This document shows, in pieces, positions 13,855 to 57,819 of a stretch of DNA of 64,000 nucleotides. A program made the position numbers and the translations under genes. Numbering within the stretch: the stretch's first letter is position 1; every line of letters starts with the position of its first letter. A model generated the notes under the pieces. That model saw only the letters and a list, made by a program, of their open reading frames with translations, did not search any database and was not told the origin of the DNA. The DNA is from Naegleria gruberi (taxonomy: Eukaryota), in the NCBI GenBank assembly GCA_000004985.1, contig GG738876.1; one strand, given 5' to 3'.

Positions 13855-15183
13855 ATGAATCATCTTAAACGATTGATTGTTTTGGCTCTTGTAGTTGTAC
13901 TCATGTTTGTCGTCTCACTTTCACATGCTCAAGACGAACAACAGGAAAACAACAATAAGAGACCACCAAGACCTTTACCTTCAGGTAGACCACCAAGACC
14001 ACATCCAGATCATTCTGGAGGGCGACCACCTCGCCCATTCCCATCTGGAGGAAGACCACCACGTCCAGATCATTCAGGAAGAAGACCAAGACCAGATCAT
14101 TCTGGTGAGAGACCACATCCACCAGGTCCACAACCAGATCATTCAGGAAGAAGACCACCAAGACCTGGTCCACATCCTGGTCAATCAGGATTACCACCAC
14201 GTTCTGATGAACAAGATGGTCAAAGTGAAAATAGACCTCGTCCACCAAGACCTCATCCAGAACGTTCAGGTGAAAGACCACATCCAAGACCTTTCCCATC
14301 TGGAGGTAGACCACCAAGACCAGACCACTCAGGAAGAAGACCAGGTCCACATCCAGATCATTCTGGAAGACCACCTCGTCCACATCCAAGACCAGAACCA
14401 TCTTCTGAAGATGACGAACACTCTGATAGACTTGAACAAGGAAACAGACCTCGTCCACCAAGACCAGATCGTTCAGGTTTGCCACCTCGTCCATTCCCAT
14501 CTGGAGGAAGACCACCAAGACCAGATCATTCAGGAAGAAGACCACATCCAAGACCTGAACACTCTGGTGAGAGACCACATCCAAGACCAGCTCACTCTGG
14601 TGAAAGACCACCAAGACCAGATCATTCAGGAAGAAGACCAAGACCAGGTCCACAACCAGACCAATCGGGAAGACCACCTCGTCCTTATCCAGAACATTCT
14701 GGTGAAAGACCAGGCCCACGTCCTCAACCACAAGAATCAACTTCATCCTTAATAGGTGAAAGACCACCAAGACCTGATAGATCTGGAAGACCACCTCGTC
14801 CATTCCCATCTGGAGGCAGACCACCAAGACCAGGCCCATCTGGAGGAAGACCAGGTCCTGGACCAGGTCCACAACCTGATGTTTCATCTGTTGAAGATCC
14901 ACTCATTGATGCTCAAAATAATACCAAGAATGAAATTCCAAATGGACCATCCAATGGTTCTGATGCTTTGGCCATTGTCTTTGGTGTTATTGGTGCAATT
15001 GTTGTCATGGCTGCTATTGCTCTTGTCATTGGAAGTGGAATTGCTGTTTTTGTTTTGAAGAAGAAGGGTTATTCACTCTCATTGAAGAAACATCAAATGT
15101 TGAGAGATGAAGACGAATTTGAATATCCACAACAAGACCAAACTCCAATTTACTCTGTCAATCAACCAGTTGCTCAAAATTAG
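13855..15183 (+). CDS. Type I membrane protein with a Pro/Arg/His/Gly-rich decapeptide-repeat ectodomain
   Basis: Signal peptide (LIVLALVVVLMFVVSLSHA). There are about 30 degenerate units of the types FPSGGRPPRP, DHSGRRPRP and HSGERPHPRP. After these come one TM helix (ALAIVFGVIGAIVVMAAIALVIGSGIAVFVL) and a 50-aa tail beginning KKKGYSL. Confidence 0.8.
   Translation: MNHLKRLIVLALVVVLMFVVSLSHAQDEQQENNNKRPPRPLPSGRPPRPHPDHSGGRPPRPFPSGGRPPRPDHSGRRPRPDHSGERPHPPGPQPDHSGRRPPRPGPHPGQSGLPPRSDEQDGQSENRPRPPRPHPERSGERPHPRPFPSGGRPPRPDHSGRRPGPHPDHSGRPPRPHPRPEPSSEDDEHSDRLEQGNRPRPPRPDRSGLPPRPFPSGGRPPRPDHSGRRPHPRPEHSGERPHPRPAHSGERPPRPDHSGRRPRPGPQPDQSGRPPRPYPEHSGERPGPRPQPQESTSSLIGERPPRPDRSGRPPRPFPSGGRPPRPGPSGGRPGPGPGPQPDVSSVEDPLIDAQNNTKNEIPNGPSNGSDALAIVFGVIGAIVVMAAIALVIGSGIAVFVLKKKGYSLSLKKHQMLRDEDEFEYPQQDQTPIYSVNQPVAQN
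13960..14890 (+). repeat. In-frame degenerate ~30-nt coding repeat array (P/R/H/G-rich)
   Basis: Near-identical nucleotide blocks such as agaccaccaagaccagatcattcaggaagaagacca recur throughout. The lack of stop codons produces long spurious ORFs in another frame and on the opposite strand. Confidence 0.8.
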
Positions 15184-15579
15184 GTTCAATTTAAGTTTTT
15201 CAAAGATTATCGAGCGATAATAACACATTAATTTGCACTACTCTAAAGTGTGCATTCTCTCCTTGTGAGTACAAATTTACAAAATAAATACATTATTTCA
15301 TTGGTAAATTGATTGGTCTGAAAACTTAATTGTAATCTTTCCTTTATTAAAATCTCAAAGTAAAATTCCAACATCATCAATTTAAAAAATTGTCGTTAGA
15401 GCTCCTTCTCTTTGTTCATCATCATCAGTAATAATAATACTTGTGCGTTGAGAAGAATTGTTCTTTTGGTGGATCATCACAATTTGACTTGAGGAATTTA
15501 AATTATCTTTCACAAACAATTCAACGTTTTGATTAAACCTATTGCTTTTTTGTATATTTGTGGAACATTAGGTATTAGG

Positions 15580-17409
15580 ATGAAGAATAGTTATTCCACA
15601 TCAACGAGTGGTGGAATTTTATATAGTTCCGAATTTATTCAAGTTAATTTAGCTGCTGATGCAAAGGGTGATGAAGAAAATGGTTTTCAACCCAAGGCTG
15701 CATGTGTCTCTTGTAGAAAGCTACATCGTCGATGCTCAAAGGAATTTCCGAAATGCTCTGAATGTGTTACTCATCACAGAAAGTGTATTTACATGGATAC
15801 AAAAACAAAAGAAAGAAATCTAGCCTCATCATCATCAACAGATCGCACTACTAGTAGAGATAGTAGGGGTAATAACCAGAATAATAATAACAGCAAACGA
15901 TCAATGAGGAGAGCAGCGTCTACAATTGAAGAACCTCAAATTGCAATCACAGAGGGACTAATTAAGAAAAGTATCAAGAGACAAACGTTCAATGTCTATA
16001 TGGACTTGGTTTGTATGGGACTACCATTCATTACCCCTCAAAATTTTGAAAACATGCTCTTTTCTGAGAATATTCTGAATCAAAACACTAATGCAACCAG
16101 TATTAAGGCATTATTTCTATCAATACAGTCATTGTGTGATCAACGGTTTGGAAGAAGGGATGCTGCTATTGCTGCCTTCAATGAAGCAAAAAGTGAGCTA
16201 CATCAAGTTTTTGAAGATTACGATAACTATCTAAATATTTGTACATATAATAATTTAGCTTACTTTTCTGGTGCTGAGGGAGAGGATCAAATGTCACAAT
16301 GGTTCATGTCACCAGTAGAGTATTACCTATCAAAATATTCTGAATTGAATTTTAATTCCCATAACGAGCTGATAGGACTTGCCTTTGAAAATTTGAACAA
16401 AGGGAGTGGAATAACTAAATTATTTTATTTTGATAATAGATACAAATGGACAAGTCTCACTTTTGGAGATTATATAGGAATACCTTTCAAGTTATCTACT
16501 GGGAAAAGATTACCTCCTGAATTGAAGCAATTGGTGGATCGTGATTTGAATGAAAACACAGCACAAGCTGAGTCAGCAGTTCTTCAATGCATTCTTCAAT
16601 TTATGAAACAACACCATCAAAAGCTTGTGCATTCACCTGGTTTTCTCAACTTGTCTCGCATAGTGGATGTATCTAGTTTTACCAAAACAAGAATAGAATC
16701 ACTCCGAGTACTCTATTCAAAAGCAAATAGCCAAGAAAAGAGAGAGTTATTTTTCAAAGAAATGCTCAATCTTGCAAATACGACTACTGAACTAAGCAAG
16801 GATGATCTATTCCCATACATTTTACCTACCAATATTTTTGGTTTTGCTCTAGCTGCAGAAATTCATTTGGAAGCATTGTCTAATTTTTCTCATTTAGTAT
16901 CTGTTAGCGAAATTTTAGGGCATCTCAAACAAGATTTCCTAGCCCTTACTGTCCTTGCAAGGAAATATGGAAGAGTGCAGAAAGTTTATGGGTACATCTA
17001 TGATGAAATTCAGTCGGTATTGTTAAATAATGGAGTTCCTGCTGAAGAGTTATTGAACCTCATTTCTAATAATTCATTCAAAACACCATCTACCCCTAAA
17101 TTATATCCCCCTATTACTGTAAATAATCAAACCCATACAATTTCTCCCACCAACAACTCAACAGATCAAGTTATAACTTCTGAAAACTCTTCGCCCACTT
17201 CTGAAAATGTATCAAAGAAGAAGGATTTTCCATCGGCAGCTTTTCTTAATAATACGCTTCGTAATTTCAAGAAAACAATTTCCAACCAAGAAATTTGCAC
17301 GATAACTCCTCGAAGTTCTACAACATCAGATAGCCCAATTAATGAGGAAGAAATATCCTGCTTGAAAAATCAAACACTCTCAATACTGCAACAAACATTT
17401 TCAAAATAA
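15580..17409 (+). CDS. Zn(II)2Cys6 binuclear-cluster transcription factor (paralogue 1)
   Basis: CVSCRKLHRRCSKEFPKCSECVTHHRKC has the spacing C-x2-C-x6-C-x6-C-x2-C-x6-C. The first in-frame ATG is at 15580; the track start at 15529 is TTG. The region after the cluster is collinear with the two regulators at 44288..49994. Confidence 0.8.
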   Translation: MKNSYSTSTSGGILYSSEFIQVNLAADAKGDEENGFQPKAACVSCRKLHRRCSKEFPKCSECVTHHRKCIYMDTKTKERNLASSSSTDRTTSRDSRGNNQNNNNSKRSMRRAASTIEEPQIAITEGLIKKSIKRQTFNVYMDLVCMGLPFITPQNFENMLFSENILNQNTNATSIKALFLSIQSLCDQRFGRRDAAIAAFNEAKSELHQVFEDYDNYLNICTYNNLAYFSGAEGEDQMSQWFMSPVEYYLSKYSELNFNSHNELIGLAFENLNKGSGITKLFYFDNRYKWTSLTFGDYIGIPFKLSTGKRLPPELKQLVDRDLNENTAQAESAVLQCILQFMKQHHQKLVHSPGFLNLSRIVDVSSFTKTRIESLRVLYSKANSQEKRELFFKEMLNLANTTTELSKDDLFPYILPTNIFGFALAAEIHLEALSNFSHLVSVSEILGHLKQDFLALTVLARKYGRVQKVYGYIYDEIQSVLLNNGVPAEELLNLISNNSFKTPSTPKLYPPITVNNQTHTISPTNNSTDQVITSENSSPTSENVSKKKDFPSAAFLNNTLRNFKKTISNQEICTITPRSSTTSDSPINEEEISCLKNQTLSILQQTFSK

Positions 17410-20235: not shown

Positions 20236-22694
20236 TTATTTCAAATTCTCCAATTCATCGAGTGGGATATCCTCCTCATAAATATCTCGATTTCTCTTCT
20301 TTCCAGTTTCTTCGATTTCCAATGAAAAATCAGCATCAAGAGCAGCATTAGGTGAAGTCAATTGAGCAATTTCATCCTCATCATTTTGTTTTGGAATTGT
20401 CTTAATCTCGAGTAATTTGGTCTTTGGAGCTGCTTGTTGCTTCTTAGGTTTGTGGGTTCTATTATTGAGCTTTGTTTCAACAATCGAAAGCTTGTTTGCA
20501 GTTTCATTCATATGAGAAACAACTCCATTCTTCAAATTTTGTAAATCAGTAACACTAACATTTCTACCAAACGTTTCCTCGCAAGATTTTAACAATGCCT
20601 CTTCTGCTTCCAGACCAGAAGAAGCATTTGTTGATAAAATATTTCCAAATGAGCAAATATATGATTCTAAAACATCTGTCAGCACATTGAGGGCACCTGC
20701 TTTAGCTCCTTCAAATCCTTCATGACATAAAATCATTGATGTAATGCAACTGAGAGCAGAATGTGCATTCTCTTTGGAAAGATTTTGCTCTAACATTTCA
20801 TCTGGGCTCGAACTACTAGCTGAACCTTCAGAGCTTGCACTTACTGCTTTAAGGGGAATGAGAAGGTTCTTTTTCTTTTCTCTTAATTGAATAATCTTAT
20901 CTACATTTTGTTTAACTAGAGTATTGCTTGGCGAATAAATAAATGTGTCATCTTCATTGGAAATGGATGAGATTTGTTTCTTTCCTGGTGGTGGTGGACT
21001 TGTTGGCTCTCTACTCATTTGCAATGTTTGCAATAAATTATTACTTCCACTATTGCAAGAATTTTTGAGAATAGTTTGGGCCAAGTTCTGAAGTTTTGGT
21101 TCCTGTTGAGCTTTGTGAGATTGGCTATATATTTTCTTAATGGTTGACACATCTCGTAATCCCAATTTATATCCTAGATTGGAAATTATACTTAATTGTT
21201 GTTTTGCAAAATCTTTTGAGTTGTTTCGTGTTGCTATCGATGTTAAATGTGAATTTGAGAGACTTTCACCATAATCTGGCAATGTCTCATCATATGTATA
21301 TTCTGGGAAAATACATCTACTATTACTACTTAGGTTTTCAAAATAGAATGAGCTTAGAGAGTTCTCGTGGATACATTTTTGAGTTGATTTTTCTCCTCTT
21401 AGTTTCTTTTTAAATTATTGTTAAAATTCAAATAAGCTATATTCAAACTTACTAATTTTGGAAGTCTAACTTGTGCTGTTGATAAATTCCATCTTTCTTC
21501 CCTGTCGAAAATATCTACATTTTTAATTTCTTTTTGATTCTCTTGTTGAATTTTTTCCTTCAAATCTAAATAAATATCCAAATCCTTTGATGGAAGTATT
21601 TCTACAGTATTTACCTTTTGAGCCATCTCTGTATCAATTATATTCCAAGAATCTGGATCTGAATCCTTATCCTGTAAAGTGCTGAGTTTTATCTTTTTTC
21701 TTGGCTTTGATGTTGATGGCACAGTTGGTGTTTGTTCAGATTCAGAATCAGACATTGGTAATACCATAGAGCTGGCATCTTGCATTTTGGAGAGAGCATC
21801 CAATTTTTCCTCGTCATAGATAGCATTTATAGATGTTGTAGGATTATATAAATTAGAAATGATCATTTGATCAATTTGATTATACTTGTAGAGATCCACA
21901 ATATTTGTATTTTCATCATTTTGCAAATGCATATTTTCTAATAAATCCCTATCTTTTTCCAATGTGTGAAATTCACTCATTTGGAAATATGGCAATAAAG
22001 AAATGTCATCATCGTACAATACATGATTTGTTACAAATGAATCGTATAAAATTGATCTCAATCTCAAAGATAATTCCATAATTAAATTATGTGACACTTC
22101 TCCAGAGGCTTGATTATTGTTCCAGAAATTACCAAATGTATCCTTATTCACAGTAACTTGTTGATACAATTTATACAATTTATCATTGCTAGCTTGTTGA
22201 AAAATGTTGGAAATCTTCTTTTTAGGAGATCGATCCAATTCTTGAACAAGTGAAAACCACTGATCAGATGATGATGTTTGTAGCATACAAGGAGAACAAC
22301 AAGAAGACGAAGTAGGTGAATAATCAGATGGTGATACAACAGCTCTCCTTCCTCCAACAACAATACCTCCCGACGATGATAACAGTGGTGTATTATTATT
22401 ACCAGGCTTTCTCTTTCTTCGTGTATTTGGTGTTTTCAATTGTGTATTATTATTATTACTAATGCTGCTACTACCACAACTCGTTGAAGATGGTGGAGTA
22501 TTATTTCCACCTCCTTGTTGTTGTTGCAATGTTGTAGTACCATGAATACCACTTGTATTGACCGTCAGTTGATGCTGTTGCTGTTGTTGCTGAAGTAAAG
22601 AAGAAGCTTCGCCAACTTCTTTGCCCGTTATTATTGTTGGTGTTGCTTCATGTAAATGGTTGGGCATTTTTTGGAAATGATAGGTTGGCGCCAA
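20236..22694 (-). CDS. Q/N/S-rich nuclear-type protein with a possible BTP/histone-fold (TAF8/TAF3-like) segment; two exons
   Basis: ORFs 21399..22694 and 20236..21282 join in frame once a 47-nt intron at 21406..21452 is removed. The donor is gtaagt directly after ...RLPKL, and the acceptor is ttaaaaag. The downstream frame is open right up to the acceptor and has no ATG near its 5' end. Exon 1 is 22694..21453 and exon 2 is 21405..20236. LSCITSMILCHEGFEGAKAGALNVLTDVLESYICSFGNIL is a weak BTP-like match. Confidence 0.6.
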
Positions 22695-22902: not shown

Positions 22903-24499
22903 ATGTATTGCAATAGTATGTAGGAGATGTTTTTGAAGATTGTTCTAATGTGTTGTGTTATTAATCCTTGTTGTTGTTTGTATTGTGTGATGCGGATTCT
23001 AGTTAGTGAAACAGCACCACTTCATCCTGTAATTTCTAAAAAGACTGGACACTTGTTTGAAAAGAGTTTGATCTTAAAGTATATTGAAGAACACGGAAAG
23101 TGTCCAATTACTGGACAAGATTTAACTCCTAATGATTTAATTGATGTAATTTGTAGGTATCGGATCTTTAATTTCTCTCATCATTGATCATCTTGTATTA
23201 TTGTTCATCTGAATAATTGTTTTAATAGATAAGAAAGGCACTGAATCATCGGTGAAGCCTAGTCAAGCTATTGCCAGTATTCCAAGCATGTTACAAACAT
23301 TCCAAAATGAATGGGACTCTGTAATGTTGGAAACTTTTACTTTGAGACAACAATTGGATAAATCAAGAAAGGAACTTTCACACTCACTTTATCAACATGA
23401 TGCTGCTTGCAGAGTTATTGCAAGATTAATGAAGGATAATGATGACACAAAGAGTATTCTCAGAAAAAATCAAAATAATATGGAAGATGAAACTTCTAAT
23501 ACTCTCTCAGAGACTGTTTCAGAAAGACTTACAAATACTGCAGAAATTCTCTCATCAAATAGAAAACAAAGAACTATTTCACCATCTCTTAAATCACCAG
23601 AGGAAATGTCAAATTCCAACACTCGTTTGTTAAATAGTGAATACAGACTCCATCAAGGAAAGGGTATTCAATCCATTGACGTTTTAAATTCATTGATTTT
23701 AACTGGAGGTAGAGATGGATCAATTTCAGTTTTTGATAAGCAATATAATACTTGTATTGGAGAGTTGAATTCTAATTCTGGACCTGTAAATTGTGCCATT
23801 TTCCACAATACTCCTGAATTTGCCTTTTCAAGTCACAATAGAGATGTTAAAATATGGTCTCTTAAGGATTCTACCTGTCTTCACACTATGGAAAAACTTC
23901 ATTTGGAACGTGTTACTGGACTTGCCTTGCATCAATCTGGTCACTACTTCTTGACATCATCTCTCGATCAGACATGGTCTTTCTGTGAAATTGAAACTGG
24001 AACTAGTTTGTTAAAGAGTAGCAATGATGAATCAGGATATACTTGTATTCAATTCCATCCAGATGGTTTATTATTTGGTACTGGTCTTCAAAATAATGCT
24101 GTAAAGATTTGGGACGTCAAGTCTCAACAAGTAGCTGCTACATTACAAGGACACTCTGGAGAAGTTACCTCACTTTCATTCTCTGAAAATGGTTACTATC
24201 TCGCTTCTTCATCAAAGGATAAGACTGTTCGTATTTGGGATTTAAGAAAAGTGGTACCTCTGCACACATTGCAATTCAATTCACCAGTTAGCAATGCTTC
24301 CTTCGACTATTCTGGTATTTATCTAGGTGCAACCTGTACTGATGGTACTGTTGGAGTTTATCAAGCTAAGGTTTGGACTGAACTCATTAATACAACAGTT
24401 CCAAACACCTGTTCTCCATCAAGCATTCGCTTTGGACCTAATGCTAGTTTTATTGCTGTTTCCGGATTGGAGGACAGCACTTTGCGATTCATTGAATAA
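22903..24499 (+). CDS. PRP19: Pre-mRNA-processing factor 19 (U-box E3 ligase with WD40 repeats), three exons
   Basis: Exons are 22903..22915, 23003..23152 and 23229..24499. Introns are 22916..23002 (87 nt, gtatgt...tctag) and 23153..23228 (76 nt, gtaggt...aatag). The spliced N-terminus MYCN|ISETAPLHPVISKKTGHLFEKSLILKYIEEHGKCPITGQDL matches the Prp19 U-box. SIPSMLQTFQNEWDSVMLETFTLRQQL...LYQHDAACRVIARL is the Prp19 coiled-coil signature. WD40 repeats follow. Confidence 0.9.
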
Positions 24500-24559: not shown

Positions 24560-25478
24560 ATGGGTGTAGACGTTACCGTGCTAATGGTCAATCTGGACCA
24601 ATTTGAAGATTTGGGTATGCATCTACTTTTTTACTTTATTATTTAATACTTTGTAAATAGCTGAGAAACTTGTCTCCGATGAAACAGAAGATCCATCTTC
24701 CTACAAACAAGATTTGTTAGAATTAGATAGCAGATTTTATATTAACAGTTTCCGCTTGAGAGCTGCCGGTGAATTAGCAAAATTTGCAGCTAAATTCGGA
24801 TTATCAGAAACTTGGTCTGATTCAACCCAATTAGATGAATTGTTGTGTAGTATTGGCACATTTAGACAAGACAGTACAATCATACTAACTCAGGAAAACT
24901 CTGATGAAGTGGAGGAATATGTTGAATTTCCTAACTTGATTGAGTTGGGAGAAGCTTACCAATCAGTTGCAGAGTACACTTTCACATTCATTCATCCACT
25001 TTTGATTGCAGAATTGAGTGCTCATTTCGAACATCAAAATAGCATTCCTATTGAATTATTGGAAAAAGTATTCGAAAATGAATATGAAGAATATGTTCGT
25101 CCAAAGAAATTGAGAAAACCAAATTCCAATGAAGAAAGCATCGATGGAATAAGAGAATGGTTAAGCCATAATGATGAATATGTATTCTTCACCAATATCC
25201 TATTGTATTACAATACACCTGAACGTGTCTTTTCTCTTTTGGAAAAACCAAAAATTGGAAAGGAAAAAGTGAAAAATATTTTACAACCACTGCTGATGAA
25301 ATTTGAAGATATTGCAGATGAATATTGGATTTTAATTATGGAATTTATTGAAGATCCATTTTCATTGACAAGATTTGGAATGGCTCATTCGAAATTCTAC
25401 AATATTCTTTGTAAGAATCGAAAAGAATGGTATGCAGAATTCAAAAGAAATATTGGATTATTCTCATACCTGAGCTAA
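24560..25478 (+). CDS. Hypothetical acidic protein, two exons
   Basis: aaaaaaaATG start. Exon 1 is 24560..24614, the intron is 24615..24660 (46 nt, gtatgc...aaatag), and exon 2 is 24661..25478, in frame with ORF 24714..25478. No confident domain. Confidence 0.6.
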
Positions 25479-25603
25479 TTACCCTTCAAATGTTCTTCAC
25501 ATTGTACGAATTAGTTCTTGTTTTGCTAGATCATTAAATTTATTAAAGCATTCTCTAATAATTTGTAAGAAAGTATTCAATTAATTTAAAAAGAGTTCCA
25601 GCA

Positions 25604-26338
25604 ATGTATGTTGCTAATCAAGCTGTATTGGCATTGTATTCATCTGGAAAGACTAATGGAATGGTTATGGATTCAAGAGATGGAATTACACATGCTGTTC
25701 CAATTAATGATGGATTTGCCGTTTCAGATGCAATTGTGAGTTTAGAATTGGCAGGCAGTGACATTACTGATTGTTTAATGGAAATGTTGAAGGGGAAAGG
25801 GTTTCCTCAACTCCAATCCTTAACAAACGAAAGAAGAATCTTTAGAGATATTAAGGAGAAGCACTGTTATATTTCTCTTGATTTCAATACTGAAATGGTA
25901 AATGAAACATCTTTATCTATTCAAAGAGAATATGAACTACCAGATGGGTCTATCATTCCAATTGATAAAGAACGATTCAAATGCACAGAAGTTCTTTTCC
26001 AACCAAATTTGATGGAATTAGAATGTGCCTCCATTCATGAAACTATTCTCAGCTCAATTGGTAAATGTAATATTGAAATGAGAAAGAATTTGTTCAGTAA
26101 CATTCATATATCAGGTGGAAATACAATGTTTGAGGGAATTTCTGAACTATTGACCAAGGAACTGACTGCACTAGCTCCATCTGCAATGAATGTTAAGATT
26201 ATTGCTCCTCCTAAGAGGAAATATTCTGTTTGGATTGGTGGTTCGATTCTTGCGAGTTTTATTGAACATGATATGTGGCTTTCGAAAGAGAATTATGAAG
26301 AATTTGGATATGAAGTTGTTCATAGAAAGTGTTATTGA
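25604..26338 (+). CDS. 5'-truncated divergent actin paralogue (equivalent to actin residues ~132-375 only); possibly a pseudogene or neo-gene
   Basis: The 244-aa ORF is collinear with the C-terminal two thirds of actin, from MYVA.QAVL to the terminal HRKC(F/Y). About half the positions are identical by eye. The codons just upstream of the ATG still read ..R-V-P-A-, matching actin N-V-P-A-M-Y-V, and are then cut off by an in-frame TAA at 25559. Confidence 0.7.
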   Translation: MYVANQAVLALYSSGKTNGMVMDSRDGITHAVPINDGFAVSDAIVSLELAGSDITDCLMEMLKGKGFPQLQSLTNERRIFRDIKEKHCYISLDFNTEMVNETSLSIQREYELPDGSIIPIDKERFKCTEVLFQPNLMELECASIHETILSSIGKCNIEMRKNLFSNIHISGGNTMFEGISELLTKELTALAPSAMNVKIIAPPKRKYSVWIGGSILASFIEHDMWLSKENYEEFGYEVVHRKCY

Positions 26339-26720
26339 GTTCAGTATTCTTCTTGCTGGAATACTATTGATCACCATTCAGAGATGTCAGATGCGAAGAA
26401 CGCAGAAGTGTTTGTTGTTTGTAAAAATTATTACGGAAATATTTACTGAAATTTGTTTTAGTTATTCGAAAGAAATGCATTTACGAATCCACAAAGATGC
26501 ATCATCATATCTTAAAGGATAATAATGCCGATCCAGTAGGGCGGCAATCCTCTTATTTCTAACAATTTGTACGAAACCAAGTTGAAATTGTAGAATCTTG
26601 TTTGTAAATGGAAAGAGATGGTATTTTACAAATTAATTTAAACTGTCCCTAGTACGTACATTTTGTTTGAAATGATTGAAAGAAAGTAAGAGTAAAGGGT
26701 TTATTAATCATTCAAAAAGA

Positions 26721-29047: not shown

Positions 29048-32017
29048 ATGTCTTCGTACGGAACGCACGGCGATGGTGGAGATGGGTTGGAATCGAGTAA
29101 ACAACTCAATGTGCTCCAAAAGATTGCTAGAAATAGAGTGGTGAATATTGTTGGTGCGATAATATTATCAATTATTTTATTATTGAGTATTGGATGTTGT
29201 GTTGTTGTTGGTGTGCTTCATTCACATTTGCTTTTCCAATGTGGATTTGCTGAATTTATATTTATGTTACTTCTTGAAGGCGCTACATTCTTCTTCTGTA
29301 TTTATCACTTGTACAATATTTACAAGTTTTTCAAGACTAGAGCACGACACTCTGGTAAGAAGGGAATTTCCGCTATTGTTGCTGCTTTATGTTCATCAGA
29401 AGTAAATCAATACAATGCATATTCTGATTCCAGACAAGGAAATGAAGAAGATGATTTTGATGATGAAGAAGATGATGAAGATGACGAAGAAGAGGAGGAA
29501 GAAGAAAGCAAATTTTCCAAGTTTGTTGTCGGCTTTTTGAAGATTGCTGCCAATGCTATTGCTGTTTTATGTTTCATCATTTTGGTACTTTTCACAGTTG
29601 TTGTCGTTCCATTGCAACAACAAACCTACCCAACTTATAACGGTACTCTTAAACTTCCAAAGTTTACACCAAAGGGATCTTCTGCTCCTACAATTTCACG
29701 TGAAAGTAATGGTGTTGTTCACATCAAGGCTTCACACGATTATGATTTATATTTCGCACAAGGTGTAGCTGTTGCTCAAGATCGTTTGTGGCAATTGGAA
29801 TTTAATCGTAGATTGTCAAATGGTATTTTGGCTGAAGTTGCTGGTGCTGATGCTGTCAATGTTGACAGTTGGTTCAGAACTCTCGGATTTGCTCGTTCTG
29901 CTGCCAACATTTTACCAACCATTGATGCTGAAACTCTTTCATTCATTCAAGCATATTGTGATGGTATTAACTCTTATATTAATAGTAATCCACCACTTCA
30001 ACCTGAATTTGTTCTCCTCAACACTAAACCAGTTGAATGGACTCCAAGTGATGTTATTGCTTATATGAAGTTTGTTTCATTCTCTCTTTCTGATAATATG
30101 GAAAAGGAAGTTTGGAGATTCAAGATGATGCAAAGAAATATCACAAAGGACAGAGTTAACGAATTGGTTCCTTTCTACCCAACTGATATGCCAACTATTT
30201 TGAGTTTGGAAGAAATGAATTTGCAAAACGTTCCAGTTGAAGAAAGAGAAAAGATTGAAAAGGCTCAACAAGATGATTCTGCTGCTTTTATTCCAAAGGC
30301 TATTCACAATTTGACCATGTCTGTCATGGAAGAAATGTTCGCTTCATTGGAAGAATCTGGTGAATGGGGTAAACAAGCTGTCAGATCAGTTTTGAAGGGT
30401 ATGGTTGCTCCAGATATCACTGGTAACAAGGCCTCAAACAATTGGGTTCTCGGAACCAAGATTACAGCAAACAATGGATCATTGTTGGCTAACGATCCTC
30501 ATTTGGATTTGACTGCTCCAGGTATTTGGTATTTGGCTCATTTGGAAGGTCCAACTCACAATGTTATTGGTTCTACTTTTGTTGGTCTTCCAGGTATTGT
30601 TATTGGTAAGAATGATTTCATTTCATGGGGTGTTACTACTGGTCTTGTTGATGCTCAAGATTTGTACGTCATGTCCGAAGTTGAAGAAGGTAAAACTTAC
30701 AACTACAATGGTAAAGTTCTCCAATATGAAACTCGTACCGAAACTATTAATGTTAAGGGAGCTGCTGCCAAGACTATTACTGTTAAGGAATCTGTCTACG
30801 GTCCAGTTATTAATGACCACTACCAAGTTGATGGTAACGTTTTGTGTTTGAAGTCTTTGACTACCTACACTAATGATACCACACTCCAAGCTTTCCTCAA
30901 GTTGAACAGAGAAGCTAAGGATTGGAACTCATTTGTTGATGTTGTCTCCTTGTTCGTTTCCCCATCCCAAAACTTTGTCTTTGCTGACAAGAGTGGTAAC
31001 ATTGGTTACTATTTGGCTGGTTTGGTTCCAATTAGAAAGGAAGGTCACAATGGTAGATTCCCAGTTATTGGTGATGGTAGCTATGATTGGCAAGGATTTA
31101 TTCCAGCTGCTGAAAAGCCAAGCGTTTACAATCCAAAGAAGGATTACATTGCTTCTGCAAACAACAGAGTTACTCCTGTTGGTTACAAGTACAGTATTAC
31201 CCAAGATTGGTACTCTTTCTATAGAGCTAGCAGAATTGTCTCATTGATTGAAACTGCTATTGAAAAGGGAACTCCACTCAATTTTGAATACATGAAGAAG
31301 ATGCAACACGACGTTCACTCACCAGTCTTTGATCAATTCAAGTTTGTTTTTGAAGCTATTCCAAAGTTCAGAAATCTCACTGAAAATAAGGAAAAGTTGA
31401 GAGAAAAGTTGATTAATTGGGACGGTGATGAAATTTTGTACTCTCAATCTGCTTCCATCTTTGAAATGTGGTACAAGATTATGGGTAACCTCACCAAGGT
31501 TGAAACTGTCAATAGATGGTCTTTCGGTCCATATCTTTACAATGCCTTGAAGAATGGTGATAGTGCTTGTGAAAATTATCACAACACTACTTGTATGTTG
31601 TTCGCTATTGACAGCTTTGAAAATGCCATTGATGCTCTTGAAGCCACTTACGGTTCTATTCCATTGTGGGGTTCTGATATTCACGAATCTGAATTCCCTA
31701 ACCCGGTAATGGATAATACTGTTCTCAAATGTTTGGCTGGAGCTACTCGTACTACTGTTGGTGGTTCTTCAACCATTAATGTTGGTGAAACTCAATATCC
31801 TGCCCTCAATTCAAGATGGGGTGTTTCTTATAGACAAGTTGTTGATTGGCGAGGCAATCAAGCTTCATTCATCATTCCACTCGGTCAATCTGGTAACTTC
31901 TTATCTCCTCTTTACACCAACTTGTTAGAAATGTGGTCTGACCCAACTGGTCAATACTTGGACATGAAATCTGCTGGTTACACTGCAACCAATACCCTTT
32001 CTCTTTCCTCTCAATAA
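29048..32017 (+). CDS. Penicillin/acyl-homoserine-lactone acylase family Ntn-hydrolase (peptidase S45), anchored by three N-terminal TM helices
   Basis: The ATG at 29048 follows agaaaaa. Family motifs are YFAQGVAVAQDRLWQLEFNRR and the beta-chain start S-NNWVLG...LLANDPHLDLTAPGIWYLAHL. The nucleophile Ser codon is at 30434..30436. Three N-terminal TM helices flank an acidic run (EEDDFDDEEDDEDDEEEEEEE). Codon use is typical of the host. Confidence 0.85.
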   Translation: MSSYGTHGDGGDGLESSKQLNVLQKIARNRVVNIVGAIILSIILLLSIGCCVVVGVLHSHLLFQCGFAEFIFMLLLEGATFFFCIYHLYNIYKFFKTRARHSGKKGISAIVAALCSSEVNQYNAYSDSRQGNEEDDFDDEEDDEDDEEEEEEESKFSKFVVGFLKIAANAIAVLCFIILVLFTVVVVPLQQQTYPTYNGTLKLPKFTPKGSSAPTISRESNGVVHIKASHDYDLYFAQGVAVAQDRLWQLEFNRRLSNGILAEVAGADAVNVDSWFRTLGFARSAANILPTIDAETLSFIQAYCDGINSYINSNPPLQPEFVLLNTKPVEWTPSDVIAYMKFVSFSLSDNMEKEVWRFKMMQRNITKDRVNELVPFYPTDMPTILSLEEMNLQNVPVEEREKIEKAQQDDSAAFIPKAIHNLTMSVMEEMFASLEESGEWGKQAVRSVLKGMVAPDITGNKASNNWVLGTKITANNGSLLANDPHLDLTAPGIWYLAHLEGPTHNVIGSTFVGLPGIVIGKNDFISWGVTTGLVDAQDLYVMSEVEEGKTYNYNGKVLQYETRTETINVKGAAAKTITVKESVYGPVINDHYQVDGNVLCLKSLTTYTNDTTLQAFLKLNREAKDWNSFVDVVSLFVSPSQNFVFADKSGNIGYYLAGLVPIRKEGHNGRFPVIGDGSYDWQGFIPAAEKPSVYNPKKDYIASANNRVTPVGYKYSITQDWYSFYRASRIVSLIETAIEKGTPLNFEYMKKMQHDVHSPVFDQFKFVFEAIPKFRNLTENKEKLREKLINWDGDEILYSQSASIFEMWYKIMGNLTKVETVNRWSFGPYLYNALKNGDSACENYHNTTCMLFAIDSFENAIDALEATYGSIPLWGSDIHESEFPNPVMDNTVLKCLAGATRTTVGGSSTINVGETQYPALNSRWGVSYRQVVDWRGNQASFIIPLGQSGNFLSPLYTNLLEMWSDPTGQYLDMKSAGYTATNTLSLSSQ

Positions 32018-32195: not shown

Positions 32196-33590
32196 ATGAC
32201 CAATGCCAGTTCTTCCACAACACGAACAACAAGTGCAAGCTACAGACAGCAAAAATTGAAAAGTAAACAAATAGATAATCAACTGTACGGAAATTTATCA
32301 GCACAACTTGTCTCCACCAACAACAATCAGCTCCAACTTGAACAATTACAAAAAACAACGAGACCTCTTCGAATATTATTGATGGGACCAAGAAATTGCG
32401 GAATTAAAACCTTTCTAATGAATGCTCTTGATATGGAAGCTGATGATTTCATGATTCGAACCATGTTATCAATGTCTCATAGAGTGAATCAAATTTCGAA
32501 TAGTAATCTTGCTGGACTTGATGATACAGAACTTACACGTCCATTGACTTTTCAACAAAAGGCAGAGGGTCTCTTTTCAGAGAAGAATAGAAATCTGACG
32601 CTCAATGTGTACATGTATATTTGTAGAGGAATCAAAGTTTTTGTAAAATGGGAATGGAAATATTTTGAAAGATTGAAGAGGAAAATTCATGAAAATTATG
32701 AACATCATCATTATCATGAGGAACATTTTGATTTGGTTTATAATTGGGAAGGTGACGAAGATGGTAAATTATTGGATGAGTTGATAAATGATTGTCGAGA
32801 GCAGAAACAATTGAATTCCAAAATTATTTCAATTTATTCCAAAATTGTGAATTATGGAAAAAAGGAAGTAATGAACGAATTTTACAATTCATTATTAAGA
32901 TCGACAAATATTAGATATTTGGATAATATTCAATAGTATGTTTGTCATAAGTTCAAATTTCATTCAAAAAATTTCAGTTTTTTCACACTTGATGCTTTCA
33001 ATAGAATTACTTCCAATGATTACAAGCCACTCAACCAAGATTTGCTCAAATCTCATCATCCAGACGATAAGGGAATTATTTCAATTCGGAGGGATGAGTT
33101 TGAATTTATTGACATTACAGGTCAATTGAATGAAAGAAGAAAGTGGATTCATCAATTTTCCAACTCTATTGATGTTATAATGTTCTTCATTCCAATTTCA
33201 GATTACAATCTAATCAATCCACTGACTGGAATGAATAGACTTGATGAGGCTTTTCATTTATACAATGAAATTCAAACAACGAAACTTTTTGAGAGAGCTG
33301 ACATTTCAATCATGTTAACAAAAATGGATTTGTTTAAAAAGAAACTAGTTTTGGATCCAATTTCGAATTATTTTGAAAAGTTTCAAGCGTCGAATGGAAA
33401 TTTAAAAGAAACTATGGAAGTGATGAGAGGAATATTTAGTCAAAATTTTGGGGAAGATTCGAATTATAGGAGACTGTTTGTGCATCAGGTTGATTTGACT
33501 GATGTGAATGATTTTAAAGTGGTTTATAGAGGAATTTCCAGTTCTCTTCGATTGGGAACTTTCATTTCAATTTTTGCTAGAAGGAGATGA
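32196..33590 (+). CDS. Divergent heterotrimeric G-protein alpha-subunit-like protein, two exons
   Basis: The ATG at 32196 follows aaaaaaacaaa. Exon 1 is 32196..32935, the intron is 32936..32977 (42 nt, gtatgt...tttcag) and exon 2 is 32978..33590. The splice restores ...RYLDNIQ|YFFTLDAFNRITSNDYKPLNQDLLKSHH...FEFIDITGQLNERRKWIHQF...DVIMFFIPISDYN...NRLDEAFHLYNEI...MLTKMDLFKKKL. This is collinear with G-alpha (DVGGQRSERKKWIHCF, NRM.ES, NK.DLF). Confidence 0.8.
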
Positions 33591-44287: not shown

Positions 44288-47200
44288 TTAATTTAATTTG
44301 TTCTTTTCCATTTCACTTTTAAGGATATTGGCCAACTTGTAAATATCAGGAAGTTGGAGATTTTGCTGTATCTCTTGAGGTATGTTTAGGGAGTAGTTGT
44401 CCTCGTGATTGTAAGAGTTGTTAAATAAATTATTTGGGTGTGACTGAAATTGAATACTTTCAAATAATTGGTTAGATCTTCTTTGCTTGAACAGTTCCAT
44501 TCTTTCAATAAGATAGGCATACTTATCATTTCCGTATCTATCTTTCCATGTATTTAGCGCATTAATATCCAAATCTATCATATCCAAGAGTTGCTGCTCG
44601 AATTGTGATATAACTTGTTTGTGAGCTAATGGATTTTGAATATCTTGTGCACTGAAAGTTGAACCAAAGTAATTTGAAAGCTCCAAAGTTTCTACAATGG
44701 AAGCAAATGGAAGTTGTGAAATTTCTGAAAGTGCCTCCAACAATTCTAAATGAACCTCAGCCGCACTCGCAACTGAATTCATCAAGTTTGGTTTCAACAA
44801 TTCAAAATTCTCAATAGTGGTACATTTTGTAACAACATTGGAGAGTTTTAAAATTTCAGAATTGAGAAAATGTAAAACTCCCTTATTTGTCATTGTGGAA
44901 TTAGGGGAGGAGTTCTTTTGGGTTGCTTTGGTCTTTCTGTATACTTCCTTAACAAGGAATAACTTGGTACCAAAGACAAACAAGTTGAAAATACACAAGG
45001 CCAATGGTAGCTGTAAATCATTGAATTTTCTTCTCTTTTCATGTTCTCTGTAAATCTTGGAGAGGTTATCGATTATTTCCATGTATGAGGATAGATTGTC
45101 TAGGGTTGGTTGTACCTCTGTTAACATGTGAAGTACATGCTTAGGGATTCTGCCTGTGATATATAAATGCATATCAGCCAAAATTTTACAAAAGTAAGAA
45201 CTGAAAGAATATCTCTTGAAATTGGATGAGTCCATCTTTACAAGTCCATCAGAGAGATGAAAAGTACCCTCTGGACTGACTTTACCCAACAGTGACAAGT
45301 CATTTGATGTTTCTGGTGATTTGATAGCAAATGGTGGATCGATACGTAACATGACAGGATATTGATCCTTGCCACATGCATCAAGAGTAATTCCACACAA
45401 AATTCTAAATTTGAGCAATTTAAAATCAGCCTCCTTTGGAAGTCTCTCATAAATGTGACGAGTAGGTGATGATTGAGTATTTCGAAGTAAGAGCTCAGTT
45501 GAATTAATTCCCAAATTTTGCATAATATTCTTAATATTAGGATCGTCAGCATGTTTGGTCATTAAATCCCTCAAAGAATTATCATTTGAATCTATTACAT
45601 ATTCTTCCAGTCTATCAAAGTCAATCTTGTGTCTATTTCCAAAGTAAAAATCAACAAAGTTCAAATAAAATTTTGCTGTATCAGAATCTCCCTTGCTTGC
45701 GCAATAAACAGACAAATGACAATATGTAGTAGCAACCAAAATATTTGACCAAGAATCAAAGAAATTAGCAAGGCAATTCTTTGCCTTTTGGAATGATAAA
45801 AATCCCTGTTGATCGTGTCCCAATGCCTGACAAGTTACAGCATGAATAGAGTATAACAGAGAAAGAATTTCAGGAGAGTAGTTTGAATTACTGTCAATAC
45901 TTTCGCTCTCAAATAAAGCTTGCTCTATTAAATTAATGTCTACAAGTGAATATCCTAGAGAAATTACTCCTTCATAAAGTTCAATAGTTTTCTTCCTATA
46001 AGCAGCAATATTCAATTTTTCAGCAATTTGATTTTGGAAAAATGGTAATTGTGAAGTGTTTGATAGCATTTCAGTCCAGTTAATTCCATGTTGATCCAAA
46101 TTATTTGAAAATCCCATTTGTGAGGCAAGAATTCGTTTAAGCTCATCTGTAAACTCTAAATGAACATCATTATTCTTACTTGTTTGTGGATATGGTTGAT
46201 ATCTAGAGTTATTGCTGTTGTTTGTAGTTGCTACCACTGTTGTTGATGAACTAGCTTTGGCTGATTTAGTATTTGATTGATTATTATGTCTTCCCTTCTT
46301 TTTTGGTGACCTGTAAAGACAATCAACACCTCTTTTTGTGCATTGCGAACAAGAAGGCCACATTTTATCACACTTTAAAGTAATAAATATTAATTTGTTG
46401 TTAAATTGTTATTCACTTACCTTTTTGTGCCTACTTCTGCAGTTAACACAAGCAATTGGGAAATACATCTTCTCAGGATCTTGATTCAACTCGAGTGAAC
46501 CAGGATGTGGCACGTGTTCATCTTGATTATTATCCATAGGCTTTTCTGTCAAACTTCCATTACTGCTGCTTGTAATCATTTGGTTATCATTTAAATTGGT
46601 AACATCCAAACTAGGGTTTTGGTTATTATTATTAAACATATTGGATGAATTAGATGTCGTTACTGTTGTTGGTTGAAGAGTGTTAATGATTTGTTGTAGT
46701 ATCTCATCGTTTGAATTATTCATATTTACTGTTGATACATTGTCGTTCGGTTTCATATAATTATTTACATCAGAAAGTAATAATTGTGTCATATTATCCA
46801 TATTATTGTTGTTATTCATATTATTGTAATTGTTATTATTATTATTAGAAGGGAAATATTGATTTGTTGATTGTAACAATTGGTTTAAATCGAGATTATT
46901 CAATAAATTATTATTAGTGGAGGGGTTTGGTTGATTAATGGCTTTAGGAGTTTGTAATCCCATCATTAAATTTTGAACAATACTTGATGAATCCATAGTA
47001 CGAGAATTTAATTGACCATTTGATGTTGATGATGGAATTAAGTTATTGTTACTACTTGAATATTCTCCACCATTTTGCTGTTGTTGTTGTTGAGAGAATA
47101 ACAAATTGATGAGCATATCCTGTTGATTGTTTGTTGTATTCATCATTGATTGTCCTCCAACAGTGTTATTATTATTGCTTTGATTTGTTTTAAAGGAGGA

Positions 47201-51077: not shown

Positions 51078-51150
51078 CGCCCCACGTGGGGCTCGAACCC
51101 ACGACCGTTGGATTAAAAGTCCAACGCTCTACCGACTGAGCTAGCGGGGC
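51078..51150 (-). tRNA. tRNA-Lys(UUU): tRNA-Lys (anticodon UUU)
   Basis: The minus strand reads GCCCCGC TA GCTC AGTCGGTA GAGC G TTGGA CTTTTAA TCCAA CGGTC GTGGG TTCGAGC CCCAC GTGGGGC G. This is a 73-nt cloverleaf in which all four stems pair. No intron and no encoded CCA. Confidence 0.95.
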
Positions 51151-57746: not shown

Positions 57747-57819
57747 TGGAGATGCGGGGTATCGATCCCCGTACCTCTTCCATGCTAAAGAAGCGCTCTA
57801 CCATGTGAGCTACATCCCC
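57747..57819 (-). tRNA. tRNA-Ala(AGC): tRNA-Ala (anticodon AGC)
   Basis: The minus strand reads GGGGATG TA GCTC ACATGGTA GAGC G CTTCT TTAGCAT GGAAG AGGTA CGGGG ATCGATA CCCCG CATCTCC A, 73 nt. The G3:U70 alanine identity pair is present. No encoded CCA. Confidence 0.95.

What the first reader, a model, noticed from the sequence alone, without database searches (positions are those of the whole stretch)
25559..26338. Actin paralogue truncated exactly at residue ~132, with relic actin codons upstream of its ATG
Seen in the sequence:
- The 244-aa ORF is collinear with actin residues ~132-375, from MYVANQAVLALYSSG to IAPPKRKYSVWIGGSILAS...VHRKCY.
- The whole N-terminal third (phosphate-1 loop, DNase-I loop) is missing.
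- The four codons before the ATG read R-V-P-A, matching actin's N-V-P-A-M-Y-V. Homology therefore continues past the start until an in-frame TAA at 25559..25561.
- A possible acceptor (ttaaaaag|a) sits at 25586..25593.
- The phosphate-2 motif is altered from DSGDG to DSRDG.
- The 125 bp upstream up to the previous gene contain no actin-like exon.

This is either a decaying duplicate, an N-terminally truncated actin-fold protein made from an internal Met, or the 3' exon of a chimeric gene.
Basis: partly seen in the sequence, partly recalled or inferred. Interest (0 to 1): 0.55.

Follow-up and report, generated by a model that had tools for sequence, protein, structure and literature searches.

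The report
Truncated actin gene copy in Naegleria
This is a divergent extra copy of the actin gene in the amoeba Naegleria gruberi that has lost its first third; it is most likely a recently disabled leftover of that species' very large actin gene family, not a new kind of protein, although an expressed "half-actin" cannot yet be ruled out.

Summary
The window is Naegleria gruberi. ORF 25604..26338 (244 aa) is the deposited model NAEGRDRAFT_69091. It aligns collinearly with actin residues 132-375 at about 56% identity. Nucleotide homology to canonical actin begins abruptly at 25594/25595, so the V-P-A codons before the ATG are a real relic. No coding sequence for actin residues 1-128 exists anywhere in the 64 kb.

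The chimera reading is disfavoured. The upstream ORF is a separate, unannotated Naegleria-specific gene (putative F-box-like), and its last 22 codons and stop position are conserved in relatives. A missed upstream actin exon is also unlikely, because the N. fowleri and N. lovaniensis actin genes examined are intronless.

The fragment is not an old decaying pseudogene: omega is about 0.22, codon positions differ by 0.29/0.16/0.47, and a fully neutral route to this divergence keeps the ORF open in about 0.1% of simulations. Parts that only make sense in a full-length actin remain conserved, and the untranslated V-P-A relic has barely drifted.

Best reading: a long-constrained divergent paralogue that lost its 5' third recently, within a family counted at 64-78 members. 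Expression is undetermined. It is an ordinary gene-family relic of modest interest.

The parts
25595..26338 (+). Actin-homologous segment, from the V129 codon to the TGA stop; corresponds to actin subdomains 3 and 4 plus the residue 129-144 and 338-375 pieces of subdomain 1
   Evidence: tblastn hit 25595..26335, 56% identity, E 4e-92; nucleotide homology onset; PDB mapping to residues 132-375
25604..26338 (+). Open reading frame of 244 codons starting at the conserved actin Met132 codon; identical to GenBank model NAEGRDRAFT_69091 (EFC42977.1 / XP_002675721.1)
25595..25603 (+). Relic codons GTT CCA GCA (V129-P130-A131) upstream of the ATG; untranslatable from this locus without splicing
   Evidence: 8/9 nt identical to canonical N. 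gruberi actin mRNA; P about 0.03 if drifting like third positions
25592..25595 (+). Homology breakpoint (25594|25595) with two overlapping AG dinucleotides (25592-93, 25594-95) that resemble intron acceptors
   Evidence: the context AATTTAAAAAG resembles the acceptor of a probable real intron ending at 21406
25559..25561 (+). In-frame TAA that closes the actin reading frame 14 codons upstream of the ATG; no in-frame ATG lies between
25479..25594 (+). Spacer of 116 nt (GC 0.26 over 25479-25603) with no actin homology in any frame; presumably the 3' UTR of the upstream gene and/or the promoter of the fragment
25670..25684 (+). Phosphate-2 loop codons reading D-S-R-D-G (G156R)
24560..25478 (+). 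Context: separate upstream gene, unannotated, 290 aa. Exon 1 is 24560-24614, the 46-nt intron is 24615-24660, exon 2 is 24661-25478. Member of a Naegleria-specific putative F-box-like family
25411..25416 (+). GTAAGA candidate donor inside the upstream gene that would give an in-frame chimera; judged not used constitutively
   Evidence: conservation of the downstream codons
25490..25509 (+). Speculative leader mini-exon ATGTTCTTCACATT followed by the GTACGA donor; spliced to the AG at 25592-93 it would give MFFTL-VPA-MYV...
   Evidence: 19% of shuffled spacers give an equivalent model, so it is not significant
25554..25572 (+). Upstream copy of a 19-nt direct repeat (17/19) that brackets the fragment; possible target-site duplication
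   Evidence: 11/1000 shuffles and 8/400 real-sequence controls reach its score
26558..26576 (+). Downstream copy of the same 19-nt direct repeat

Best explanation
A lineage-specific, strongly diverged actin paralogue of Naegleria gruberi existed for most of its history as a longer, probably full-length, gene under relaxed but real purifying selection. It then lost its 5' third (codons 1-128, and presumably its promoter) through a rearrangement or partial-copy event with a breakpoint at 25594/25595. What remains stays open because the loss is recent. It looks like a gene because the first in-frame ATG after the breakpoint is actin's conserved Met132 codon, which the annotation pipeline took as a start. 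A product made from it would lack the phosphate-1 loop, the DNase-I loop and most of subdomain 1, and it carries G156R in the phosphate-2 loop, so it could neither bind ATP nor polymerise as an actin. I therefore regard it as a young gene relic of the birth-and-death turnover of the expanded N. gruberi actin family.

Shown: the truncation, the sharp breakpoint, the absence of the N-terminal coding sequence within 64 kb, the independence of the upstream gene, and past purifying selection.

Inferred: that the truncation is recent, and that the product is non-functional.
For: Truncation and sharp breakpoint.

Past constraint: codon-position differences 0.294/0.163/0.473, dN 0.273, dS 1.245, omega about 0.22. 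A fully neutral path to 56% identity leaves the ORF open in about 0.1% of simulations, and the ORF tolerates only about 0.08 substitutions per site of neutral drift at P >= 0.05.

Features that only matter in a full-length actin are still conserved. The subdomain-1 remnants are 67% identical, against 58% for subdomain 3 and 54% for subdomain 4, and 15 of 19 nucleotide-binding or catalytic residues are retained. The untranslated V-P-A relic is 8/9 nt identical to canonical actin, P about 0.03 under third-position-like drift.

The upstream gene is independent: its C-terminus and stop are conserved in relatives of 211-363 aa without an actin domain. The Naegleria actin genes examined are intronless.

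Family context: N. gruberi has >=30 actins and 78 actins plus Arps (10.1101/2020.05.12.091538), or 64 'Actin-1' genes against 4 in N. lovaniensis (PMC9928731). This locus is counted among them. Partial actin-domain loci in Dictyostelium were classed as pseudogenes (PMC2441452).
Against: No disabling mutation lies inside the 244 codons, and GC by codon position is that of an ordinary coding gene. Continuing selection on a truncated product explains the intact ORF equally well.

The recency argument rests on small numbers: 9 relic nucleotides, and a non-significant subdomain contrast (Fisher P = 0.16).

No parent or sister copy closer than 59% identity was found, so the event cannot be dated or polarised. 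No orthologue or synteny is available. Expression status is unknown. A spacer of 125 bp is enough for independent transcription here, since the neighbouring PRP19-like and F-box-like genes are only 60 bp apart.
Confidence: 0.5

Rival explanations
1. A functional, expressed N-terminally truncated actin-fold protein: translation starts at Met132, or at a short acquired leader exon. The product consists of subdomains 3 and 4 plus the C-terminal helices. It does not bind nucleotide. It acts through retained actin surfaces, for example by binding actin monomers, filament ends or actin-binding proteins as a modulator or decoy.
For: Intact 244-codon ORF with omega about 0.22 and no lesions. Coding-like GC1 > GC2 > GC3. 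Retained surface motifs such as YELPDG, RKYSVWIGGSILAS and VHRKC. G156R and T303N are what one would expect once nucleotide binding is irrelevant. Short intergenic spacers are normal in this window. A leader-exon model (ATG 25490, donor 25504, acceptor 25592-93) would keep V-P-A coding and explain its conservation.
Against: No orthologue or close relative in any other genome or transcriptome. No transcript or peptide evidence was found, although the controls show that this absence is uninformative. About 50 residues of subdomain 1 would be left without their folding partners, yet they are the best-conserved part. Nucleotide-contact residues are mostly retained although useless in such a protein. 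The leader-exon model arises by chance in 19% of shuffles and uses an atypical GTACGA donor. The ATG context is poor in A compared with most starts in the window.
Confidence: 0.27
2. The 3' exon of a chimeric gene: the upstream putative F-box-like gene is spliced from the GTAAGA donor at 25411 to the AG at 25594-95 (185-nt intron), fusing about 268 residues to actin residues 130-375.
For: The donor/acceptor pair is in frame and gives a 513-aa ORF. GTAAGA is close to the local donor consensus. Homology ends exactly at an AG.
Against: The 22 codons between the donor and the stop at 25476-78 are conserved as protein, and the stop position matches the N. lovaniensis relative (...DIGLFCYLS* versus ...NIGLFSYLS*). 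All four relatives end there and have no actin domain. With two GTA(A/T)G donors and three AGs near the boundary, an in-frame pair is likely by chance. The best-supported introns in the window are 42-88 nt, not 185 nt. No chimeric protein is present in any collection.
Confidence: 0.06
3. The gene is really complete. Either the N-terminal third lies elsewhere and is joined at the RNA level (a distant exon or trans-splicing of a split gene), or the truncation is a mis-join in the Sanger draft assembly.
For: Homology ends exactly at an acceptor-like AG in a context resembling real acceptors. Nucleotide-binding residues and subdomain-1 remnants are conserved as if the N-terminal part were still present.
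Against: No actin residues 1-129 within 25 kb upstream or 38 kb downstream on either strand. The N. fowleri and N. lovaniensis actin genes examined are intronless. Two unrelated genes occupy the upstream 2.7 kb on the same strand. There is no gap or N run at the junction. I know of no report of trans-splicing of split genes in Naegleria (my own knowledge, not tested).
Confidence: 0.1

Closest known systems
Partial actin-domain pseudogenes of Dictyostelium discoideum (act34_ps to act39_ps; Joseph et al. 2008, PMC2441452)
   Same: Fragments of actin genes in an amoeba with a greatly expanded actin family; only part of the actin domain remains; by-products of family turnover.
   Different: Those fragments are shorter (41-135 aa). 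Here 247 codons of homology survive as one uninterrupted ORF with a measurable signature of purifying selection, and the sequence is far from any other family member (56-59% identity).
Conventional Naegleria actins (e.g. NAEGRDRAFT_55094, N. fowleri Actin-1)
   Same: Collinear over residues 129-375, 56-59% amino-acid identity, same C-terminal motifs.
   Different: Lacks residues 1-128. dN to canonical actin is about 18 times the dN between N. gruberi and N. lovaniensis actins (0.273 versus 0.015). G156R lies in the phosphate-2 loop. Codon bias is lost (GC3 0.25 versus 0.40).
NAEGRDRAFT_54894 (second N. gruberi model of 244 aa starting at Met132)
   Same: Same apparent start at the conserved Met132 and the same length.
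   Different: 242/244 identical to full-length NAEGRDRAFT_48298 and located on a 4,096-bp scaffold. It is probably a very recent partial duplicate or an assembly fragment, not a diverged lineage.
Actin-containing chimeric genes (e.g. primate POTE-actin fusions; recalled from my own knowledge)
   Same: An actin-derived coding segment lies directly downstream of an unrelated gene on the same strand, with a formally possible in-frame splice.
   Different: In POTE-actin a complete actin retrocopy is fused and transcribed with the host gene. Here only two thirds of actin is present, and the upstream gene's own C-terminus and stop are conserved, which argues against fusion.

Membership tests
Actin (Pfam PF00022; conventional actin) | Significant sequence match to the actin family profile | tested here: met
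   PF00022 E 8e-69, 232.7 bits; E 2e-88 to solved actins
Actin (Pfam PF00022; conventional actin) | Complete actin fold: both halves (subdomains 1-2 and 3-4), about 375 residues | tested here: not met
   The match covers only profile positions 126-409 of 410, i.e. residues 132-375. No coding sequence for residues 1-129 in the 64 kb
Actin (Pfam PF00022; conventional actin) | Phosphate-1 loop (residues 11-18) and DNase-I-binding loop | tested here: not met
   Absent with the missing N-terminal third
Actin (Pfam PF00022; conventional actin) | Phosphate-2 loop D-S-G-D-G (154-158) | tested here: not met
   Reads D-S-R-D-G, while G156 is invariant in all 12 Naegleria/Willaertia actins aligned
Actin (Pfam PF00022; conventional actin) | Adenosine-pocket and catalytic residues of the C-terminal two thirds (Q137, H161, R210, K213, E214, G301, G302, M305, K336) | tested here: met
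   All retained; T303N and R183S are changed
Pseudogene (non-functional gene relic) | Loss of an essential part of the coding sequence | tested here: met
   Codons 1-128 are missing, with a sharp breakpoint at 25594/25595
Pseudogene (non-functional gene relic) | Internal disablements (stops, frameshifts) | tested here: not met
   None in 244 codons; only three in-frame indels relative to actin
Pseudogene (non-functional gene relic) | Neutral evolution (omega about 1, equal divergence at all codon positions) | tested here: not met
   Omega about 0.22 and position differences 0.29/0.16/0.47 over the whole history. A short recent neutral phase of up to about 0.08 substitutions per site cannot be excluded
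Pseudogene (non-functional gene relic) | No transcription or translation | tested here: inconclusive
   Not found in Logan transcript contigs or the stored part of a proteome table, but two neighbouring control genes are also absent
Chimeric / fusion gene with the upstream ORF | Upstream gene lacks its own conserved terminus and is spliced in frame to the actin segment | tested here: not met
   An in-frame GT/AG pair exists, but the C-terminal 22 residues and the stop are conserved in relatives without an actin domain
Ordinary multi-exon actin gene with a missed 5' exon | An exon encoding residues 1-128 upstream on the same strand | tested here: not met
   No such sequence in the window on either strand. 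N. fowleri and N. lovaniensis actin genes are single-exon. The rest of the genome is not testable with these tools

The most novel reading that the evidence does not exclude
The locus encodes a stably expressed 'half-actin' made of subdomains 3 and 4 plus the C-terminal helices. This product has been kept by selection in the truncated state. It would work without nucleotide, either as a decoy or modulator of actin or actin-binding proteins, or as one half of a split actin whose N-terminal partner is encoded elsewhere in the genome.
Probability: 0.2. Interest if true: 0.65.

Novelty: new member of a known kind. Interest (0 to 1): 0.25.

Why it matters
Mostly for bookkeeping. This fragment is deposited as a protein (XP_002675721.1, labelled 'Actin' in UniRef) and is counted in the published tally of 64 N. 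gruberi actin genes (PMC9928731). At least some of that striking expansion therefore consists of incomplete copies. It also gives a datable example of birth-and-death turnover in the family. Separately, it exposes an unannotated neighbouring gene. If the minority reading were true, and a selected, expressed actin lacking subdomain 2 and most of subdomain 1 exists, it would be a natural experiment on whether half of the actin fold can fold and function alone. Nothing found here requires that reading.

Tried and rejected
1. Search for the missing N-terminal third: tblastn of actin residues 1-135 against the window at E up to 1000, plus a gapped DNA local alignment of the first 390 nt of canonical actin against both flanks and both strands. 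Scores were no better than shuffled sequence.
2. Chimera with the upstream ORF: mechanically possible but rejected on conservation of the upstream gene's terminus.
3. Inherited intron at codon 129: rejected for the canonical genes examined, which are intronless.
4. A 29-31-nt intron from GTAAGA at 25565: too short compared with real introns in the window (42 nt and longer), and the upstream frame has no ATG.
5. Leader mini-exon (ATG 25490): not significant, since 19% of shuffles give an equivalent model.
6. Synteny with N. lovaniensis to date the event: no conserved neighbours beyond the upstream gene's relative itself.
7. Expression evidence: exact-product look-ups in Logan/NCBI contigs were uninformative because two control neighbours are absent too. 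Supplements of five papers/preprints were searched. The only hit is orthogroup membership.
8. Literature search for the locus tag: no paper mentions it.
9. AlphaFold2 with a 13-sequence alignment gave mean pLDDT 37, which is unusable. I did not repeat it with a deep actin alignment, because a confident actin-like model would only restate the homology.
10. Target-site duplication: the 17/19 repeat bracketing the fragment is marginal (P about 0.01-0.02) and there is no poly(A) relic. Kept as a lead only.
11. DNA of the second Met132-start model (NAEGRDRAFT_54894) could not be retrieved.

Full report
**Identity of the window and of the feature.** The 64-kb window is AT-rich (GC about 0.33) with long, intron-poor eukaryotic ORFs. 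The 244-aa ORF at 25604..26338 is 100% identical over its full length to GenBank protein NAEGRDRAFT_69091 of Naegleria gruberi (EFC42977.1 / XP_002675721.1; UniRef D2VJM4, named 'Actin'), from a 396,977-bp scaffold. No paper in the searchable library mentions the locus tag.

**Checking the observation.**
- The ORF matches Pfam Actin over profile positions 126-409 of 410 (E 8e-69).
- It aligns end to end with residues 132-375 of solved 375-residue actins (E about 2e-88).
- tblastn with a canonical actin finds one hit in the window, 25595..26335, at 56% identity (E 4e-92). A deliberately permissive search with residues 1-135 finds nothing better than E > 1 on either strand.
- The in-frame TAA at 25559-61, the R-V-P-A codons, the ttaaaaag at 25586-93, the 125-bp spacer to the previous stop (25476-78) and the DSRDG motif are all as described.
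- I aligned the locus with a canonical N. gruberi actin mRNA contig (L001, Logan run SRR3922091). Nucleotide homology starts abruptly at 25594/25595. The first 36 nt are 33/36 identical, and identity immediately upstream is about 27%, the random level. V-P-A is therefore a real relic (8/9 nt identical); the preceding R codon is not.

**Is there a missed exon or a chimera?** The upstream ORF (24714..25478 in the mechanical list) has no early ATG.
- It resolves into a two-exon gene: exon 1 at 24560-24614, a 46-nt GTATGC...AG intron, and exon 2 at 24661-25478, giving 290 aa.
- This protein has no hit, not even a self-hit, in the 5.8-billion-protein collection, so it is unannotated.
- An exhaustive HMMER search finds four relatives (E 1e-37 to 4e-9): N. 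lovaniensis C9374_013243 and C9374_009080, N. gruberi NAEGRDRAFT_73009, and an environmental sequence.
- They share the predicted N-terminus (MG.D....NL) and end at the same place as the window ORF...K.DIGLF.YLS then a stop. Only a sub-threshold F-box-like match supports a name for the family.
- An enumeration of splice possibilities does find an in-frame pair. Donor GTAAGA at 25411 and the AG at 25594-95 give a 185-nt intron and would fuse this gene to the actin segment.
- That splice would discard 22 codons that are conserved as protein in all relatives, together with a conserved stop position, and none of the relatives carries an actin domain. With two GTA(A/T)G donors and three AGs near the boundary, an in-frame pair is also expected by chance. 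The chimera is therefore disfavoured.
- An inherited intron at this codon is not supported either. The N. fowleri and N. lovaniensis actin genes examined are single exons: 373 aa in 1122 nt and 375 aa in 1128 nt.
- A speculative leader exon (ATG 25490, GTACGA donor 25504, acceptor 25592-93) would read MFFTL-VPA-MYV..., but 19% of shuffled spacers yield an equivalent model.

**Has the sequence been under selection?** Measured against the canonical N. gruberi actin:
- The three codon positions differ by 0.294, 0.163 and 0.473.
- dN = 0.273 and dS = 1.245, so omega is about 0.22.
- Canonical actins compared between Naegleria species have dN 0.015-0.06 and omega about 0.035-0.08.
- The copy is thus greatly accelerated but clearly not neutral over its history.
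- In simulations that mutate the canonical sequence with the window's base composition, reaching 56% amino-acid identity takes about 0.27 substitutions per site and leaves the frame open in about 0.1% of runs, before counting indels. An open frame is retained with P >= 0.05 only up to about 0.08 substitutions per site.
- GC at codon positions 1, 2 and 3 (0.42/0.35/0.25) is that of ordinary genes in the window. GC3 has fallen from the 0.40 of the highly expressed canonical actin.
- No protein in any genome or transcriptome is closer than 59% identical. There is therefore neither an orthologue nor a recent parent copy among predicted proteins.

**How old is the truncation?** Three weak but concordant observations suggest it is recent relative to the copy's divergence.
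1. The pieces of subdomain 1 that remain (residues 129-144 and 338-375) would have nothing to pack against in a truncated protein. They are nonetheless the best-conserved part: 67% identical, against 58% for subdomain 3 and 54% for subdomain 4. The contrast is not significant (Fisher P = 0.16).
2. Fifteen of 19 residues that contact the nucleotide or serve catalysis are retained, although the other half of the site is gone. The changes are G156R, V159I, R183S and T303N.
3. The nine relic nucleotides upstream of the ATG cannot be translated from this locus without splicing. They are 8/9 identical to canonical actin, which has P about 0.03 if they had drifted like third codon positions.

G156R, at a glycine invariant in all aligned Naegleria actins, is the kind of change expected once nucleotide binding no longer matters.

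[quoted passage not shown] EFC42977.1 appears in that study's actin orthogroup list, so this fragment is counted as an actin gene. In Dictyostelium, the other well-studied amoeboid actin expansion, six partial actin-domain loci of 41-135 aa were classed as pseudogenes (PMC2441452). A second N. gruberi model of 244 aa, NAEGRDRAFT_54894, also starts at Met132. It is 242/244 identical to the full-length NAEGRDRAFT_48298 and lies on a 4-kb scaffold. The conserved Met132 evidently serves as a default start codon for truncated copies.

**Expression.** This is undetermined. The exact product is not on record in Logan transcript contigs, whereas canonical actin is. Two neighbouring single-exon genes are not on record either, so the absence carries no weight. 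The stored part of one proteome table does not list the protein, and other supplements were not held or had no hit. The 125-bp spacer is no argument against independent transcription, because the two genes immediately upstream are separated by only 60 bp. The ATG context has 3 A in positions -10 to -1. That is at the low end of the starts surveyed in the window (range 1-10), and some of those may not be true starts.

**Conclusion.**
- Most likely (about 0.5): a recently 5'-truncated, formerly constrained, divergent actin paralogue. It is a young relic of family turnover, and its ATG is simply actin's Met132.
- Not excluded (about 0.27): a truncated actin-fold protein that is expressed and selected.
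- Chimera with the upstream gene: about 0.06.
- A complete gene hidden by distant or trans-splicing, or by mis-assembly: about 0.1.

**Other leads.** The origin of the breakpoint is unresolved. It coincides with an acceptor-like AG. A marginal 17/19 direct repeat (25554-72 and 26558-76; 11/1000 shuffles and 8/400 real-sequence controls reach its score) brackets a 985-nt segment that contains the fragment. No synteny with N. lovaniensis is available to polarise the event. A structure prediction with a shallow alignment was unusable (mean pLDDT 37).

Noticed in passing
window 24560-25478 (+): A two-exon, 290-aa gene that appears to be unannotated in N. gruberi: there is no self-hit in the protein collections. 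It belongs to a small Naegleria-specific family (N. lovaniensis C9374_013243 and C9374_009080, N. gruberi NAEGRDRAFT_73009) with a conserved MG.D..NL N-terminus and a conserved ...DIGLF.YLS C-terminus. Only a sub-threshold F-box-like match (E 0.02) was found in one relative.
   Followed up: yes
not in the window: GenBank EFC35479.1 / NAEGRDRAFT_54894, on a 4,096-bp scaffold: A second N. gruberi gene model of exactly 244 aa starting at actin Met132, 242/244 identical to full-length NAEGRDRAFT_48298. It is either a very recent partial duplicate or a scaffold-edge or haplotig fragment. This suggests that several of the '64 actin genes' are incomplete copies.
   Followed up: partly
window 25554-25572 and 26558-26576 (+): A 19-nt direct repeat (17/19 identical) brackets a 985-nt segment containing the actin fragment. 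Only about 1-2% of shuffled or real-sequence controls reach its score. It could be a target-site duplication, but no poly(A) relic precedes the downstream copy.
   Followed up: partly
window 29048-32017 (+): A 989-aa protein with a full-length penicillin amidase domain (PF01804, E 9e-180) behind an N-terminal hydrophobic and acidic extension. This is a bacterial-type enzyme family in a eukaryotic genome, and its origin was not examined.
   Followed up: no
window 22927-24499 (+): A PRP19-like gene (Prp19 domain plus WD40 propeller) with a probable short intron near 23146-23233. Its stop lies only 60 bp before the ATG of the next gene, which shows how compact same-strand spacing is here.
   Followed up: partly
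window 51078-51150 (-) and 57747-57819 (-): Two tRNA genes, tRNA-Lys(TTT) and tRNA-Ala(AGC). These were the only Rfam matches at gathering threshold in the window.
   Followed up: no
window 46373-46420, 48513-48562, 21406-21452 (all -), 24615-24660 and 32936-32977 (+): Probable introns that join long ORFs are very short (42-50 nt), with GTAAGT, GTATGT or GTATGC donors. Two of them end in ...TTTAAAG or ...TTTAAAAAG, which resembles the sequence at the actin homology breakpoint.
   Followed up: partly
window 14001-16000: A local GC rise to 0.41 against a background of about 0.33; not examined.
   Followed up: no
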